Positions 4,590-8,658 of a stretch of 64,000 bases of DNA are shown piece by piece. The notes under the pieces are model-generated. The model worked only from the letters and a program-made list of their open reading frames with translations. It made no database searches and was not told the DNA's origin. Numbering within the stretch: position 1 is the stretch's first letter; each line of letters starts with the position of its first letter. Both the position numbers and the translations under genes were made by a program. The stretch comes from a virus (lineage: Duplodnaviria; Heunggongvirae; Uroviricota; Caudoviricetes), in the IMG/VR virus record IMGVR_UViG_2648501839_000008. One strand, given 5' to 3'.

Positions 4590-4619
4590 TGATTCCATAC
4601 ATAGTAGGTATGGAATCAT
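4590..4619. promoter_or_regulatory. 12-bp perfect inverted repeat ATGATTCCATAC-N6-GTATGGAATCAT between recombinase and glutaredoxin genes
   Basis: Read directly; half-site GTATGGAATCATT recurs at 7422-7436 and 8433-8447. Confidence 0.4.
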
Positions 4620-4699
4620 TTAGACGTTGTTTTTTGAATTTTAAGGGAAACAGGAGTGAGTTTGGTGGGAATAAAAACGGCTCCTGTGAGCCGTTTAAA

Positions 4700-4945
4700 T
4701 CAGAGGGTGCTGACGTATGCAGCCAGTTCTGTGTATCCGCCAATCGGTTGGCCATCGATCAGTACCTGGGGGATAGTCTCTACCGGTTTACCAACAATTT
4801 CACTAAGTTTTTCCTTGTCGATACCGGCAGTGGTGATGTCGATGTACTCATAATCACCGTAGCCATGTCCCTTTAGTTGCTTCGCCAGCTCGACCGCACG
4901 TTTGCAGTATGAGCAGTTATCTCGTCCGTAGATAGTGATCGTCAT
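4700..4945 (-). CDS. Glutaredoxin (NrdH/Grx-like, CxxC redox protein)
   Basis: MTITIYGRDNCSYCKRA... CxxC active site in thioredoxin-fold context; start placed at internal Met with GAGG RBS (ORF track start 5023 likely too long). Confidence 0.7.
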   Translation of the reverse strand: MTITIYGRDNCSYCKRAVELAKQLKGHGYGDYEYIDITTAGIDKEKLSEIVGKPVETIPQVLIDGQPIGGYTELAAYVSTL

Positions 4946-5119
4946 TGTTACCTCATAGAATTGATATGCAACTTTACTTACAAAGAAGATAGGTATGTGC
5001 ATACTTATCATTGCAGTCTGCATTATAAAGCTATTAAAGCCTCGATCAATCTATTAATTAAGGCATTGTTTGGTTAACATTACCCTAATATTTTATAGTT
5101 AGTAGAGTGAAATACATAC

Positions 5120-6382
5120 ATGCCTTTTTTAATTTTCATTATTATACTACTGCTCACCGTGATTTTTTGGGATTGGGTTGTTTTAAATGGTCAAATTGTT
5201 GGAACATTGGCTACAGCATTTGCTTTTATAGCAACAGCATGGAATGCCTACGAAGCGAGAAAAAGTGCAAAAGCAGCTTTTTCAGCCCTTCAATTAACAA
5301 CAGAATCATTGTTCGAAATGCGAAAGAGTGCATTTAAACAATGGTTTGATTCCTTATTAAATCAACATGATGAGCTATGTCTTCTTGCAAAACAAATTAT
5401 CGATAAACGCAAAGTTAATTTAAACAGCGATGAGTTACATAGACTATATTACCCATTGGTAAAACAGCATGAGGTAATACAGTATGTGAAGCATATTATT
5501 AATATTTTTGAGTATGTGGATAGTTCATTTTATATTGATGGGGAATGTCTAAAGGAAAAAAGAGCGTATGTGTCACAATTAATTTTCAAAATCCCACCTC
5601 AGATGAAGTTGATCATTGCTATCTTTGGATTAAAAATCGATTATTGTGAACATATTAATTCGGGAAAACTGTGTTGTTTATTGAATAAATATGATTTTTT
5701 CAATGATGAAATATTTTTTGATGATGCTTATTCAGATATGCCTTATCTGGATGCATTCATAAACCTTAGATTCAACAAAATATTCAAATCTCGAATGATA
5801 AATTATTTTGATAATATCATTAAAAGTTATTATGTTCCATCGGACGTTAAAAGGGACTGGATGTTTCGAAACCCAAAGCTCGTGCCGTCGGTTCTTATGA
5901 ATTATAAAACTCCTTGTTCTCCTATAATTAATGATTACTTTGAGAAGTTGCCTTTACATGTAAGAAACTACTTTGAGGAACTACTTAAAACCGCGAATGA
6001 TAGAGTTACTCATTTTGACGTTTACATCCCACGCCTTATTGGTTGTTCAATCGTGCAACATTACGAAGATGTGCCTTCCGAAAAAAACAGGTTAAATGAC
6101 AGGAATGATGTAATAGCTATGGCTGAAGATTACATCGAGAAAAGAAAATATAATCAACTGGATTACATACTTGAAGATATATACTTCAAGAGTGACGAAG
6201 ATATAATCCCTGGCCACCATTTGATTGTGGCATTTGATGACTATGAATTTAAATTATCACTCATTAAGATAAATGAGAATAAAGATAGCGATAATCTTTT
6301 AAATCGAATTTATACTGAATCCAGTAGCATGGTTAAAGAATATAAGCGCGAAATATTAAAACTGGGCGACTATGTAAAGTAA
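5120..6382 (+). CDS. Hypothetical membrane-anchored protein (N-terminal TM helices), visibly AT-rich gene
   Basis: 420-aa ORF; hydrophobic N-terminus LIFIIILLLTVIFWDWVVL and GTLATAFAFIATAW; AT-rich relative to neighbours; own terminator. Confidence 0.55.
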   Translation: MPFLIFIIILLLTVIFWDWVVLNGQIVGTLATAFAFIATAWNAYEARKSAKAAFSALQLTTESLFEMRKSAFKQWFDSLLNQHDELCLLAKQIIDKRKVNLNSDELHRLYYPLVKQHEVIQYVKHIINIFEYVDSSFYIDGECLKEKRAYVSQLIFKIPPQMKLIIAIFGLKIDYCEHINSGKLCCLLNKYDFFNDEIFFDDAYSDMPYLDAFINLRFNKIFKSRMINYFDNIIKSYYVPSDVKRDWMFRNPKLVPSVLMNYKTPCSPIINDYFEKLPLHVRNYFEELLKTANDRVTHFDVYIPRLIGCSIVQHYEDVPSEKNRLNDRNDVIAMAEDYIEKRKYNQLDYILEDIYFKSDEDIIPGHHLIVAFDDYEFKLSLIKINENKDSDNLLNRIYTESSSMVKEYKREILKLGDYVK

Positions 6383-6397
6383 ATTGCACTGTTCAAC

Positions 6398-6425
6398 AAA
6401 AAAGGGGCCGAAGCCCCTTTGAATT
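6398..6425 (+). terminator. Rho-independent terminator (GGGGCCGAAGCCCC hairpin plus T-run)
   Basis: aaaaaggggccgaagcccctttgaatttt immediately after stop of 5120..6382. Confidence 0.6.
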
Positions 6426-6494
6426 TTGCGCTGAAAAAAGTGTTGCTAGGATGTTAGCAAGCTATGGTTAAGAACGTCTGCCGTAATTATCTAT

Positions 6495-6572
6495 CACAGC
6501 GTTGAGCGGTCTGGTTTATGTTAGCGGAGTCTTAATCGAGTTGATTAAAAGGCCAAACCGCTCAACGCTGTG
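6495..6572. other. Long imperfect hairpin (16-bp arms CACAGCGTTGAGCGGT / ACCGCTCAACGCTGTG) directly 3' of tRNA-Ser
   Basis: Inverted repeat read directly; similar hairpins at 6665-6769, 6892-6980, 7494-7617. Confidence 0.4.
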
Positions 6573-6574
6573 TC

Positions 6575-6661
6575 TGGCGGAGAGTAATGGAATCGAACCA
6601 TCATCGTTTGCACAATGGGACGGTTTTCAAGACCGCTTGAGCACCATGCTCCCTACTCTCC
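6575..6661 (-). tRNA. tRNA-Ser (anticodon TGA), type II with long variable arm
   Basis: Hand fold: acceptor GGAGAGT/ACTCTCC, anticodon loop CTTGAAA, T-arm GGTTCGATTCC, encoded CCA. Confidence 0.65.
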
Positions 6662-6891
6662 AGCTATTGTGATGGTCGGTGCTGAACTCCGACACAGGGT
6701 TGTAGCAAGCCCCGCAAAGCGCGCACTACTGTAGTTGCGGCACATCAGCCTGTGCATTCATCACAATGGTAAGATCACTACCTTTCGACCAGTCATTGTG
6801 CACATGAACGACGATTAACCGTAATGATATTATCGTTGTGTTGTGAAGCCAGATGCTTATCTTCTGGTTGCTTCAAAGAGCTGCACTTCCT

Positions 6892-6980: not shown

Positions 6981-6981
6981 T

Positions 6982-7057
6982 TGGTGCCGGTTAACGGACT
7001 TGAACCGCTGGCCATTCGCTTACAAAACGACTGCTCTACCAACTGAGCTAAACCGGC
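6982..7057 (-). tRNA. tRNA-Thr (anticodon TGT), tentative
   Basis: Hand fold: acceptor GCCGGTT/AACCGGC, D-arm GCTCAGTTGGTAGAGC, T-arm GGTTCAAGTCC, CCA; anticodon stem has one mismatch. Confidence 0.5.
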
Positions 7058-7061
7058 AATT

Positions 7062-7148
7062 TGGTGGGGAGTGATGGAGTCGAACCACCCGAGTCGCCAT
7101 GACAGTAGATTTACAGTCTACACCGCTACCTCTACGGACTAACTCCCC
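7062..7148 (-). tRNA. tRNA-Tyr (anticodon GTA), long variable arm
   Basis: Hand fold: acceptor GGGGAGT, anticodon loop CTGTAAA, T-arm GGTTCGACTCC, CCA end. Confidence 0.65.
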
Positions 7149-7153
7149 TAAAT

Positions 7154-7228
7154 TGGCGATGGTGGGTGGATTCGAACCACCGACCAGTTGGTTAACAGCC
7201 AACTGCTCTACCGCTGAGCTACACCATC
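7154..7228 (-). tRNA. tRNA-Asn (anticodon GTT)
   Basis: Hand fold: acceptor GATGGTG/CACCATC, D-arm GCTCAGCGGTAGAGC, anticodon loop CTGTTAA, T-arm GGTTCGAATCC, CCA. Confidence 0.7.
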
Positions 7229-7493
7229 AATTCAGCACTGCCAGTATTTATTACTCAACAGTGCCAATCGCGACGGTTTAGTTTCTGCCAGGAAACGCAC
7301 CGCTACTTGCACTTTTCGTTAGTGCCAGACGCTTTCGACTTCGCTCAATAGTAGAAGGCAAAATCTTTAAGTAGATGATGTTTCTGAGGACAGCACCTAC
7401 TTTGTAATTTATACAATGTGATGTATGGAATCATTTGTTGTGAAAACAGGCACCAATGGCAACAGTGGTTAAACCTACACAACAATCCCGTCT

Positions 7494-7617
7494 TCACAAC
7501 GTTGAGGCCACTACTCCGATTGAATGTTTGCCCAACATGTTACATATCAACGCTCGCCGGTATCTCTGTGAATAGAACCTTAGAATTGATAAAAATGTAA
7601 TGGCCTCAACGTTGTGT
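7494..7617. other. Long hairpin (arms CACAACGTTGAGGCCA / TGGCCTCAACGTTGTG, about 90-nt loop)
   Basis: Inverted repeat read directly; arm sequence related to hairpins beside the tRNAs. Confidence 0.35.
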
Positions 7618-8006
7618 GCTGGCTAACCATACCAGCCGGGCTACGTCGCCGCTTTTTAACCCAGTATAAACGACATAATTGAACAAAATGACGTAACAGG
7701 ATGGGCGGTCAGTGGCTAAGAATCCGGGAGTCATATGGAGTTGAAAATATACCAACCGCCCATTCTGTTACTTCATCGGAGGGAACATGAATGTTCCCTC
7801 CTGCGTTCTGCAATCACACTCGCTCAGTGTGTCCCATTTCGGTAACGAGGCTGGAAACTGACCTCGCTGGTGTTTGGCTTATTAGGCTACTGCCAGATAG
7901 ACTTCTTCGTTTGCACTTGTATTTAAGTTCAAACAGTCGCGTCTCAACGAAAACAAAGTCATCTTATACACAAAAGATAAGTAAGTAAATACTTATCATT
8001 GTATTT

Positions 8007-8297
8007 TTATTCGGTTGTGACTTTTTTGATCAAGGCCACTCTACGACTAGGTGTTCTTGTGATGGTGGCAGTGAATCGTTTCGCCTGGATAGTAATGGTT
8101 TCGTTCTCCTTAAGTTGCCCGTAGCGAGTTTCCACCAGGGTGCCAAGACGCCACAGACCATCATCGATACGTTTATGACTAGCAAATTTAATCAGCAACA
8201 GTTTTACGACTAACTGACCTACGTAAAAGGCGAATGCGACTCCGGCCGCTAAGAAATAGGTGGCCAACCACCATTCCCAAGAAGTTAGCTTGCTCAT
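8007..8297 (-). CDS. Hypothetical membrane protein
   Basis: 96-aa ORF with hydrophobic N-terminal segment WWLATYFLAAGVAFAFYVGQLVV. Confidence 0.4.
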   Translation of the reverse strand: MSKLTSWEWWLATYFLAAGVAFAFYVGQLVVKLLLIKFASHKRIDDGLWRLGTLVETRYGQLKENETITIQAKRFTATITRTPSRRVALIKKVTTE

Positions 8298-8445
8298 TTT
8301 TTCACCTTTGTTTCATGAACTACCCGATACACGCGCTTTCCTATGCACAGTGTTTTGGTTTTAAGTTCCTGCTTAATCAAATCACGACAGATGCCGAAGC
8401 CGATAAGGAAGCCACCCATAAAAGCTAATGAGATGTATGGAATCA

Positions 8446-8658
8446 TTATAACACTCCTGATTCTACTAATTGCTGTAGCAATACTTTCCCTTTATCAGTT
8501 AACTGGTAGTTGGCCGAACACTTCGTTTCAGAAACGTTTGCAACCAACCCTAACCGCTCTAACTTAGCCCGCGTTTTAGGCTTCCAGTACTCAGGGAACT
8601 CTGACCACTTACTGATTTCATGAAGTGTTTCCTTCTCCCGTTTACTTAATACGATCAT
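8446..8658 (-). CDS. Hypothetical small protein
   Basis: 70-aa ORF with GGAG RBS upstream of ATG. Confidence 0.4.
   Translation of the reverse strand: MIVLSKREKETLHEISKWSEFPEYWKPKTRAKLERLGLVANVSETKCSANYQLTDKGKVLLQQLVESGVL

What the first reader, a model, noticed from the sequence alone, without database searches (positions are those of the whole stretch)
4590..8447. GTATGGAATCATT repeat: one perfect 12-bp inverted repeat plus two distant half-site copies
ATGATTCCATAC-N6-GTATGGAATCAT lies 100 bp from the recombinase gene start, and identical 15-mers ATGTATGGAATCATT recur at 7422 and 8433. These could be recombinase or regulator binding sites, or conserved promoter elements of small genes starting MYGII.
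Basis: seen in the sequence. Interest (0 to 1): 0.4.

Follow-up and report, generated by a model that had tools for sequence, protein, structure and literature searches.

The report
Recombinase target site in phage-plasmids
The inverted repeat is very probably the DNA site on which the neighbouring tyrosine recombinase of this SSU5/pHCM2/pMT1-type phage-plasmid acts, and three single copies of its arm are conserved elsewhere in the replicon for a reason that is still unknown.

Summary
ATGATTCCATAC occurs four times in the window, where none is expected by chance. Two copies form a perfect 12-7-12 palindrome (4589-4619; the spacer is 7 bp, not 6) 100 bp upstream of a tyrosine recombinase gene.

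The window is an SSU5/pHCM2/pMT1-type phage-plasmid. In about 110 related contigs the palindrome always lies next to the recombinase gene. The arms are identical and the spacer takes at least 11 forms. Six recombinase homologues of 44-50% identity, fetched by protein alone, all carry a 12-7-12 palindrome in the same place, including on non-phage plasmids. Their arm changes are mirrored in both arms (RTGACTCCAGAC). The HTH gene is dispensable. I read the palindrome as the recombinase's core site, most likely for plasmid multimer resolution. It also marks the edge of a cargo hot spot, which holds the F1 capsule operon in Yersinia pestis pMT1.

The single copies are not N-termini of paralogous "MYGII" proteins:
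- One is non-coding.
- One is the start (MIPYI, opposite strand) of a 50-aa gene.
- A third lies inside dnaE, outside the window.

All three are invariant at synonymous positions and point towards the palindrome. Their role is unknown.

Side finding: an unannotated tmRNA-like RNA at 7615-8000.

The parts
4589..4619 (.). Perfect 12-7-12 palindrome ATGATTCCATAC-ATAGTAG-GTATGGAATCAT. Proposed core recombination site of the adjacent tyrosine recombinase.
   Evidence: It lies next to an integrase homologue in every related locus with enough flank. Arms are identical and there are at least 11 spacer types. Distant homologues carry the same architecture with mirrored arm changes.
3386..4489 (-). Tyrosine recombinase ('integrase'), 367 aa. 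Proposed to act on the palindrome.
   Evidence: Pfam PF00589, 6e-10. Conserved R185, K211, RDLRR 281-285, H307 and Y316. AlphaFold model has pLDDT 85; best PDB matches are lambda Int, Tn1549 Int and XerH. The N-terminus is helical, and neither Pfam nor the fold search showed an arm-binding domain.
4630..4645 (+). Loosely conserved flank element on the side away from the recombinase gene: a T-run followed by GAAWTCTGA, about 11-26 bp from the palindrome. Role unknown.
   Evidence: Profile of 35 non-redundant right flanks that are otherwise unrelated. A similar pattern occurs in some variant-arm lineages.
4535..4563 (-). Candidate sigma-70 promoter of the recombinase gene: TTGATC (4563-4558), 17-bp spacer, TAATAT (4540-4535). 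It lies between the palindrome and the start codon. Inferred only.
   Evidence: Read from the sequence. Both hexamers lie in blocks conserved among lineages with integrases of 82% identity or more. It falls below the threshold of the promoter scan.
7420..7435 (-). Single arm copy 3 (minus strand AATGATTCCATACATC). Non-coding; lies between a tmRNA-like RNA gene and tRNA-Asn.
   Evidence: GTATGGAATCAT is exact in 18 of 19 lineages (one position differs in SSU5), even where the flanks cannot be aligned. No conserved ORF on either strand.
8432..8447 (-). Single arm copy 4 (minus strand AATGATTCCATACATC). It contains the start codon and codons 2-5 (MIPYI) of the 50-aa membrane-protein gene 8294-8446.
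   Evidence: The 15-mer is identical in 22 of the 24 distinct full-length sequences, with protein identity falling to 44%, while the neighbouring codons and the ribosome-binding region vary. The gene belongs to phrog_6302.
3872..3883 (+). Near-copy inside the recombinase gene, coding VWNQ: TTGATTCCAAAC, two mismatches here. Other lineages have TTGATTCCATAC followed by AT (ATC in pMT1, pHCM2 and the Enterobacter plasmid). Possibly a decayed fourth single site, possibly chance.

Best explanation
The palindrome at 4589-4619 is the core-type target site of the tyrosine recombinase encoded 100 bp away. One recombinase monomer would bind each 12-bp arm, perhaps 14 bp counting the outer spacer positions. 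Strand exchange would take place across the asymmetric 7-bp spacer. This is a simple recombinase-plus-site module, as in Cre/loxP or Xer/dif.

The replicon is a low-copy phage-plasmid that is not found integrated in chromosomes, and the same module sits on ordinary plasmids and megaplasmids. The most likely job is therefore to resolve plasmid multimers, and perhaps to circularise incoming phage DNA. Recombination at the site between co-resident relatives would also explain why homology between near-identical relatives ends at the outer edge of the arm, next to a cargo hot spot.

The single arm copies (dnaE, copy 3, copy 4) are most simply read as additional binding sites for the same recombinase, used for something other than recombination. 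That role is not known.

Shown here: the site-gene association, the arm/recombinase co-variation, and DNA-level conservation of the single copies.
Inferred: binding, catalysis, the resolution function, and any role of the single copies.
For: Site-gene association:
- In 7 GTDB and 101 IMG/VR contigs with the palindrome, an integrase homologue lies next to it wherever the flank is long enough. The distance to the start codon is 97-101 bp for integrases of 82-100% identity and 45-47 bp for those of 57-61%.
- Six homologues of 44-50% identity were fetched by protein sequence alone: Xenorhabdus and Providencia phage-plasmids, an Erwinia plasmid contig, a 508-kb Pantoea vagans plasmid-sized replicon, a 515-kb Rahnella contig, and a 34-kb Photorhabdus Rep3/ParA plasmid. 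All carry a 12-7-12 palindrome within about 105 bp upstream of the gene. Their arms are (A/G)TGACTCCAGAC, so T5>C and T10>G are changed in both arms. Photorhabdus is intermediate.

Site anatomy:
- The arms are invariant, while the spacer takes at least 11 forms in the ATGATTCCATAC group and at least 10 in the variant group. A 7-bp spacer cannot be palindromic, so the site has a polarity.
- The HTH gene is absent beside the integrase and palindrome in the Erwinia, Pantoea and Rahnella loci.

The protein:
- It is a tyrosine recombinase with the catalytic residues conserved. No arm-binding domain was detected.

No chromosomal partner:
- There is no chromosomal copy of the palindrome. All 409 matches in 5,426 complete E. 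coli genomes are on plasmids. All GTDB hits have the integrase alongside.

Cargo boundary:
- Among E. coli-lineage relatives with integrases of 90-100% identity (mostly about 99%) and near-identical left flanks, at least 7 unrelated sequences begin right after the right arm.
- pMT1 has caf1R-caf1M-caf1A-caf1 there.

Single copies:
- They are invariant where coding does not require it.
- They are the only other exact or one-mismatch copies in the replicon apart from a near-copy inside int.
- In about 80 oriented loci, every copy left of the palindrome is '+' and every copy right of it is '-'.
- SSU5, the only relative seen without the integrase and palindrome, is also the only one with a mutated copy 3.
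Against: - No binding or recombination was measured.
- Palindromes with mirrored arm changes are equally what a hairpin-forming element would show.
- SSU5 grows without the module, so it is not essential for the phage.
- Isolated half-sites kilobases away from the core are not part of any described plasmid resolution system.
- Distant relatives with variant arms show no such half-sites, so co-variation of the half-sites with the arms could not be tested.
- The palindrome is never seen twice flanking cargo, so cargo capture by the site is not demonstrated.
- No recombination products between the palindrome or dnaE copy and the other single copies were found in E. coli plasmids carrying the sites: 0 of 216 and 0 of 161.
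Confidence: 0.6

Rival explanations
1. Operator set of a transcription factor. The palindrome and single copies are bound by a regulator, either the adjacent XRE-type HTH protein called 'putative repressor' in phage Cyrano or another repressor with asymmetric operators like P1 C1. Binding would control the recombinase and replication genes.
For: - The HTH gene is adjacent and convergent.
- It is expressed in Cyrano lysogens (PMC9928086).
- The palindrome lies about 20 bp upstream of a candidate recombinase promoter.
- Dispersed asymmetric operators have a precedent in phage-plasmid P1 (own knowledge).
Against: - The palindrome is retained with the integrase where no HTH homologue is present (Erwinia, Pantoea, Rahnella).
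- Two of the three single copies lie inside coding sequence or on a start codon within an operon, not at promoters.
- The promoter scan finds nothing at them.
- A 31-bp 12-7-12 layout is typical of recombinase core sites rather than XRE operators (own knowledge).
Confidence: 0.12
2. RNA-level element. The palindrome acts as an RNA hairpin. The single copies act through base pairing: the dnaE mRNA carries GAUGUAUGGAAUCAUU, the exact complement of AAUGAUUCCAUACAUC at the start codon of the 50-aa gene and in the tmRNA-like/tRNA precursor.
For: - All these features are on the strand transcribed for the surrounding genes.
- In the E. coli lineage there are 16 nt of perfect complementarity between the dnaE copy and copies 3 and 4.
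- Copy 4 covers a translation start.
- Mirrored arm changes would preserve a hairpin.
Against: - No co-variation beyond the invariant core.
- The idea does not explain why the palindrome travels with a recombinase gene on unrelated plasmids that lack dnaE, the 50-aa gene and the RNA.
- The stem is short and AT-rich, with no terminator-like T-run directly after it.
Confidence: 0.08
3. Cargo-capture or chromosomal-integration site. The palindrome is an attP/attI-like site through which circular DNA cassettes, or the whole replicon, are integrated.
For: - There is a sharp homology break at the right arm, followed by many unrelated gene modules: toxin-antitoxin pairs, fimbrial genes, the F1 capsule operon and a class 1 integron region.
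- One IMG/VR contig has a variant palindrome with no integrase within 5 kb.
Against: - The cargo is never flanked by two full sites (one palindrome per locus).
- The far edge of the variable region has no site-like sequence.
- There are no chromosomal copies of the palindrome in 5,426 E. coli genomes or in the GTDB species representatives.
Confidence: 0.12
4. Coincidence of coding sequences. The copies are conserved N-termini of paralogous small proteins (MYGII or MIPYI), with no DNA-level meaning.
For: Copy 4 is the N-terminus MIPYI of a real 50-aa gene.
Against: - Copy 3 has no conserved reading frame on either strand. MIPYI is followed by a stop after one codon in pHCM2, and the + strand frame shifts between lineages.
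- The dnaE copy is internal, in a different frame (CMESL), and in a protein segment that is not conserved in distant relatives.
- Synonymous positions are frozen only inside the motif.
- Four exact 12-mers are not expected by chance.
Confidence: 0.02

Closest known systems
Cre/loxP of phage-plasmid P1 (own knowledge)
   Same: A phage-plasmid carries a tyrosine recombinase gene beside a single palindromic site with an asymmetric spacer. No accessory arm-type sites are needed. The roles are multimer resolution and cyclisation of infecting DNA.
   Different: - loxP is 13-8-13; this site is 12-7-12.
- The protein is not Cre-like. There was no PDB sequence hit, and the fold search ranks lambda Int, Tn1549 Int and Xer far above Cre.
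- No dispersed single arms are known for loxP.
XerCD/dif and plasmid sites cer/psi; XerD-binding half-sites (XDS) of Bacillus subtilis (own knowledge)
   Same: - A core site of two arms around a short spacer, used for dimer resolution.
- XDS are isolated single-arm sites, spread over a chromosomal region, that bind one recombinase for a non-recombination purpose. This is the nearest precedent for the single copies here.
   Different: - Xer sites are imperfect palindromes bound by two different host proteins, 11-6(8)-11.
- Here the palindrome is perfect and the recombinase is self-encoded.
- Whether the single copies are bound at all is untested.
Rci/sfx of the R64 shufflon (own knowledge)
   Same: The metrics are the same: a 7-bp spacer with 12-bp arms. 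Functional sfx sites have only one conserved arm.
   Different: - Shufflon sites are clustered in inverted pairs around invertible gene segments.
- Here the 7 bp next to each single copy differ from each other and from the palindrome's spacer.
- No inversion or deletion products were found.
TnpI/IRS of Tn4430 and IntI/attI of integrons (own knowledge)
   Same: The same recombinase binds a core inverted pair plus extra direct copies of the same motif, which serve as accessory sites.
   Different: Those accessory copies lie within about 100 bp of the core. Here they lie between about 1.2 and 7 kb away, in coding and RNA-gene contexts.
Lambda-type and P4-type integrases with attP arm sites
   Same: Best structural matches are to the lambda Int core-binding and catalytic domains. 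The most distant sequence relatives are P4/CP4-57-type integrases.
   Different: - No arm-binding domain: PF13356 is present only in the 24-34% identity relatives, and the N-terminus is helical.
- No chromosomal attB was found.
- The site is a perfect palindrome rather than an imperfect core with flanking arm sites.

Membership tests
Simple tyrosine-recombinase core site (lox/FRT/dif type) | A tyrosine recombinase with the catalytic R-K-H/R-R-H-Y set is encoded with the site | tested here: met
   PF00589 hit. R185, K211, R284/R285, H307 and Y316 are invariant or nearly so in 36 homologues. The fold matches lambda Int and Xer.
Simple tyrosine-recombinase core site (lox/FRT/dif type) | Two inverted arms of about 11-14 bp around an asymmetric 6-8 bp spacer | tested here: met
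   12-7-12 in the window and in every relative examined.
Simple tyrosine-recombinase core site (lox/FRT/dif type) | Site specificity tracks the recombinase: arms conserved within a lineage and changed symmetrically between lineages | tested here: met
   ATGATTCCATAC goes with integrases of 57-100% identity and (A/G)TGACTCCAGAC with those of 44-50%. Photorhabdus is intermediate.
Simple tyrosine-recombinase core site (lox/FRT/dif type) | The recombinase binds the arms and exchanges strands in the spacer | not testable with these tools
   Needs EMSA or footprinting and an in vivo or in vitro recombination assay.
Plasmid multimer resolution system | One site per replicon, on plasmids, with no chromosomal partner site | tested here: met
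   One palindrome per locus. All 409 E. coli matches are on plasmids. The module is also found on a Rep3/ParA plasmid and on plasmid-sized replicons of about 0.5 Mb.
Plasmid multimer resolution system | Loss of the gene or site raises multimer level and lowers stability | not testable with these tools
   Genetic experiment needed. SSU5 lacks the module, but its plasmid stability is not known to me.
Cre/loxP family | Cre-like protein and a 13-8-13 site | tested here: not met
   No PDB sequence hit. Cre ranks 41st or lower in the fold search, E about 0.02. The site is 12-7-12.
Lambda/P4-type integrative system (attP with arm sites) | N-terminal arm-binding domain and a chromosomal attB | tested here: not met
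   No PF13356/arm-domain hit. The N-terminus is helical. No chromosomal palindrome was found.
Shufflon-type asymmetric sites (Rci/sfx) | Several single-arm sites with matching spacers in inverted pairs, giving inversions | tested here: not met
   The spacer-side sequences of the single copies differ. The predicted inversion and deletion junctions are absent from E. coli plasmids carrying the sites, 0 of 161 and 0 of 216.
Operator of the adjacent XRE-type HTH regulator | The site co-occurs with the regulator gene | tested here: not met
   The palindrome and integrase are present without an HTH homologue in L118, L128 and L129.
   True only for copy 4. Copy 3 is non-coding. The dnaE copy is internal. 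The palindrome's ORFs overlap the glutaredoxin gene in antisense.

The most novel reading that the evidence does not exclude
The recombinase and its arm sequence form a replicon-wide system rather than a plain resolution site. The palindrome would be flanked by inward-pointing single arms embedded in dnaE, at the end of a tmRNA-like/tRNA cluster, and on the start codon of a small membrane-protein gene.

The recombinase bound at these sites could do either of two things:
- Organise or gate the replication module, in the way XerD acts at XDS half-sites or as a polar barrier.
- Catalyse rare, programmed rearrangements with one-armed sites that switch dnaE or the RNA module off.

Either would be a recombinase-based control layer of the plasmid/phage life cycle that has not been described for phage-plasmids.
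Probability: 0.15. Interest if true: 0.75.

Novelty: new variant of a known kind. Interest (0 to 1): 0.5.

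Why it matters
SSU5/pHCM2/pMT1-type phage-plasmids are common in Enterobacterales. 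About 4-5% of complete E. coli genomes carry this region, as do Salmonella Typhi pHCM2 and Yersinia pestis pMT1. I found no description of their 'integrase' or its site in the searchable literature.

Three things follow from assigning it a cognate 31-bp site:
- It gives a testable maintenance function.
- It explains a sharp mosaic boundary next to which virulence and resistance cargo accumulates (F1 capsule operon, toxin-antitoxin pairs, a class 1 integron region).
- It offers a family of natural 12-7-12 sites with two arm specificities and more than 20 spacers, of possible use as orthogonal recombination tools.

The conserved single arms inside essential genes are an unexplained extra. They make the system a candidate for a non-canonical role of a tyrosine recombinase.

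Tried and rejected
- Promoter and terminator scan of 4300-8900: nothing at any motif copy.
- Rfam scan: only the tRNAs passed threshold.
- I looked for a degenerate second arm next to copies 3 and 4 by reading the sequence at 6-8 bp spacings. I found no convincing match, so these are isolated single arms.
- I looked for variant-arm single copies in distant phage-plasmids, to test co-variation of the single copies with the palindrome. None were present, and those loci lack the ligase, small-ORF and RNA region. The test was not possible.
- I looked for more integrase-less relatives, to test whether the single copies decay. Only SSU5 itself turned up.
- I tested for natural recombination products (palindrome x copy 3 deletion, dnaE x copy 4 inversion) in 5,426 E. 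coli genomes. None were found.
- I looked for a second site at the far edge of the cargo next to the palindrome. None was found; the variable stretch ends inside the 3' end of the glutaredoxin gene.
- In the E. coli lineage the dnaE copy and copy 4 share 19 nt, including the 7 bp beyond the arm. This identity is not kept in other lineages or in all E. coli-lineage variants, so I treat it as chance.
- Literature searches by element names and by the site sequences found no description. One 2026 preprint on a phage-plasmid heteroresistance mechanism could not be opened.

Full report
**1. What the window is**

The region matches SSU5-type phage-plasmids. The closest relatives are Escherichia phage Cyrano (pLF82) and CMS-2020a, at 95-98% identity. 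More distant relatives, at about 75-78%, are Salmonella phage SSU5, Salmonella Typhi pHCM2, Klebsiella pJN2-26, Enterobacter plasmids and Yersinia pestis pMT1.

The genes around the finding all run on the minus strand unless noted:
- HTH regulator, 3005-3391 (+ strand).
- Tyrosine recombinase, 3386-4489.
- Glutaredoxin, 4700-4947.
- An AT-rich 420-aa cargo gene, 5120-6382 (+ strand).
- tRNA-Ser, Thr, Tyr and Asn, 6575-7228.
- A roughly 780-bp stretch without genes.
- Small genes of 96, 50, 70 and 59 aa, 8007-8821.
- DNA ligase.

**2. The observation**

ATGATTCCATAC occurs exactly four times: 4589-4600 (+), 4608-4619 (-), 7423-7434 (-) and 8435-8446 (-). None is expected by chance. The first two form a perfect palindrome with a 7-bp spacer (ATAGTAG), not 6 bp, 100 bp from the recombinase start codon. 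The two distant copies share 16 nt, GATGTATGGAATCATT.

A fifth exact copy lies outside the window, 254 nt into dnaE. It was seen in Cyrano and in pHCM2. In both replicons these are the only exact copies. In about 80 related loci oriented the same way, every copy left of the palindrome is '+' and every copy right of it is '-'. All the single copies therefore point at the palindrome.

**3. The palindrome belongs to the recombinase**

A scan for ATGATTCCATAC-N7-GTATGGAATCAT found 7 contigs among the GTDB species representatives and 101 IMG/VR contigs. Wherever enough flank was held, a homologue of the window's recombinase lay next to it. The spacing was fixed at 97-101 bp for proteins of 82-100% identity and 45-47 bp for those of 57-61%.

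That scan fixed the arms, so I also went the other way. Six homologues of 44-50% identity were fetched by protein sequence only. Every one has a 12-7-12 palindrome within about 105 bp upstream of the gene. The arms are (A/G)TGACTCCAGAC, so two positions have changed in both arms. The Photorhabdus site is intermediate: CTGACTCCAGAT-TTTATAG-GTCTGGAATCAA.

These loci include an Erwinia plasmid contig, a 508-kb Pantoea replicon, a 515-kb Rahnella contig and a 34-kb Rep3/ParA plasmid. The module is therefore not tied to the phage. The HTH gene is missing in three of them, so the HTH protein is not needed to explain the site.

Eight more IMG/VR contigs carry the variant palindrome, seven of them with the recombinase gene alongside. 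One (L126) has no recombinase gene within 5 kb.

Spacers differ widely, with more than 20 forms in all. They cannot be symmetric at 7 bp, and most have T at position 2 and/or A at position 6.

The protein:
- It has the tyrosine-recombinase catalytic residues.
- The confident model (pLDDT 85) best matches the core-binding and catalytic domains of lambda Int, Tn1549 Int, XerH, XerA and IntI.
- Cre ranks far lower, and no arm-binding domain was detected.

Invariant arms, a free asymmetric 7-bp spacer, mirrored arm changes that follow the protein, and a recombinase without an arm-binding domain together describe a simple core-type recombination site.

**4. What it is for**

No chromosomal partner site exists. 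All 409 matches to the palindrome region in 5,426 complete E. coli genomes are on plasmids. Every GTDB hit carries its own recombinase gene.

The module occurs once per replicon on plasmids of very different kinds. In the Photorhabdus plasmid it sits between partition and replication genes. I therefore favour multimer resolution, as for Cre/loxP in P1, and possibly help in circularising infecting DNA. This is inference. SSU5 lacks the recombinase, HTH gene and palindrome, so the module is not needed for lytic growth.

**5. The cargo boundary**

Among E. coli-lineage relatives the recombinases are 90-100% identical (mostly about 99%) and the left flanks are nearly invariant. Even so, at least seven unrelated sequences start right after the right arm. 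The genes there include:
- CYRAN_43-like proteins.
- YafO-type toxin-antitoxin pairs.
- Fimbrial usher/AraC genes.
- A 637-aa enzyme.
- In pMT1, the whole caf1 (F1 capsule) operon.
- In an Enterobacter plasmid, a toxin gene, followed further on by IS elements and a class 1 integron region.

In Cyrano lysogens the gene next to the palindrome is the most highly expressed gene among those listed for the phage-plasmid, 723 times background (PMC9928086). The variable zone runs from the palindrome to the tRNA genes.

Site-specific exchange between co-resident relatives would give such a boundary. However, cargo is never bracketed by two palindromes, and the far edge shows no site. Cassette capture is therefore not shown. 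The otherwise unrelated right flanks share a loose T-run plus GAAWTCTGA element about 11-26 bp from the arm, of unknown role.

**6. The single copies**

Copy 4 is the start of the 50-aa gene (ATG ATT CCA TAC ATC, MIPYI, minus strand). The 15-mer is identical in 22 of the 24 distinct full-length sequences, with protein identity falling to 44%. The next codons and the ribosome-binding region vary freely.

Copy 3 is non-coding. GTATGGAATCAT is exact in 18 of 19 lineages, even where everything around it cannot be aligned. The one exception is SSU5, which is also the one genome without the recombinase.

The dnaE copy reads CMESL in frame. It is invariant in 31 distinct sequences of 72-100% identity, while neighbouring wobble positions and even residues change. 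The protein segment is not conserved in distant relatives.

These copies are therefore held at the DNA or RNA level, not by coding. Nearly all carry AT(C) after the 12-mer, which fits the preferred T at spacer position 2 of the palindrome. I found no second arm beside any of them.

The simplest reading is that they bind the same recombinase as monomers. Precedents for one-armed or extra sites exist: XerD-binding half-sites in Bacillus subtilis, sfx sites of the R64 shufflon, and the accessory repeats of TnpI and IntI (own knowledge). What they do is open. The predicted deletion and inversion junctions between sites are absent from E. coli plasmids carrying the sites, 0 of 216 and 0 of 161, so frequent recombination at them is unlikely.

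An RNA-pairing alternative cannot be excluded, because the dnaE mRNA is complementary to copies 3 and 4 over 16 nt. It does not explain the link to the recombinase on plasmids that lack these genes.

**7.

'Recombinase binding site' holds for the palindrome. 'Promoter elements of genes starting MYGII' does not hold. Those + strand frames are not conserved, and at copy 4 the frame is antisense to a conserved gene.

**8. Novelty**

I found no paper that names this site or gives this recombinase a function. The kind of system is familiar. The conserved, inward-pointing single arms inside an essential gene, at a start codon and beside an RNA gene are not part of any described resolution system. 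I rate it a new variant of a known kind, of moderate interest.

**9. Side finding**

The conserved gene-free stretch at about 7615-8000 encodes a structured RNA on the minus strand. RNAalifold gives -93 kcal/mol and 83 pairs, 15 of them with changes on both sides.

It carries a tmRNA-type tag frame, GCA AAC GAA GAA GTC TAT CTG GCA GTA GCC TAA TAA = ANEEVYLAVA**. Across lineages the tag varies only at residues 3-5, and always in frame: ANEDAYLAVA, ANEDTYLAVA, ANDNQYLAVA, ANDTQYLAVA.

Detection tools do not recognise it:
- Rfam gives only sub-threshold tmRNA matches on the tag.
- ARAGORN misses it at default settings.
- RefSeq leaves it unannotated.
- I could not find a canonical tRNA-like domain.

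A related element with tag ANEEMYLAVA lies between the Q antiterminator and the holin gene of a lambdoid prophage. There it is followed by a hairpin enclosing a T-loop-like GGTTCGACTCC.

A 2014 census found ssrA on non-chromosomal replicons only in mycobacteriophages, and named further phage tmRNA sequences in Bacillus phage G and mycobacteriophage DS6A (PMC4131195). This element deserves its own follow-up.

Noticed in passing
window 7615-8000, minus strand (tag frame about 7871-7906): A highly conserved structured RNA carries a tmRNA-type tag reading frame, ANEEVYLAVA**. In other lineages the tag is ANEDAYLAVA, ANEDTYLAVA, ANDNQYLAVA or ANDTQYLAVA. It is unannotated in RefSeq, below threshold in Rfam and missed by ARAGORN at default settings. 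No canonical tRNA-like domain was found. It appears to be an undescribed phage-plasmid tmRNA-like gene.
   Followed up: partly
L133 3915-4240 (E. coli B25FEP chromosome, lambdoid prophage, between the Q antiterminator and the holin gene): A related tmRNA-like element with tag ANEEMYLAVA*. It is followed by a long hairpin enclosing GGTTCGACTCC (T-loop-like). Rfam's standard tmRNA model gives two small sub-threshold hits, on the tag and on the T-arm. The element family is therefore not limited to phage-plasmids.
   Followed up: partly
window 6500-6575, 6760-6985, 7497-7620: A family of long hairpins whose bases read CACAAC.../...GTTGTG (for example CACAACGTTGAGGCC...GGCCTCAACGTTGTG). They are interspersed with the tRNA genes and the tmRNA-like RNA. 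The prophage element has a similar hairpin around a tRNA-like arm. They may be tRNA-like or processing elements.
   Followed up: no
window 4584-4588 and 4620-4628 (bases directly outside the two arms): In 39 E. coli-lineage loci the 100 bp left of the palindrome are almost invariant except at two places: the 2nd to 5th bases outside the arm, and a second spot about 73 bp away, beside the recombinase start. The first bases outside the right arm also vary. This local hypervariability next to the site is unexplained.
   Followed up: partly
L012 and L059 (Buttiauxella and an IMG/VR contig), at the palindrome: The 7-bp spacer is the exact reverse complement (CTATTAA) of the one in close relatives (TTAATAG), while both flanks keep their usual orientation. 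The spacer appears to have flipped within a perfect palindrome.
   Followed up: no
L005 9108-15411 (Yersinia pestis pMT1): The F1 capsule operon caf1R-caf1M-caf1A-caf1 sits in the cargo zone that starts at the palindrome. Its insertion has removed the tRNA genes, copy 3 and part of the tmRNA-like RNA.
   Followed up: partly
window 7596-7628: A CRISPR spacer in an E. coli chromosome (NZ_LR778147.1, 1705873-1705905) matches this stretch at 100% over 33 nt. Some hosts therefore target this phage-plasmid here.
   Followed up: no
window 5120-6382, + strand: An AT-rich 420-aa gene (phrog_18168, no Pfam domain) with an N-terminal hydrophobic segment lies in the cargo zone. Cyrano and pHCM2 have other genes at this position. 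It may be an accessory or defence gene.
   Followed up: no
L126 5270-5300 (IMG/VR contig 2791355157_000004): A variant palindrome GTGACTCCAGAC-CTCGTGA-GTCTGGAGTCAC with no recombinase homologue within 5 kb. It may be an orphan or partner site.
   Followed up: partly
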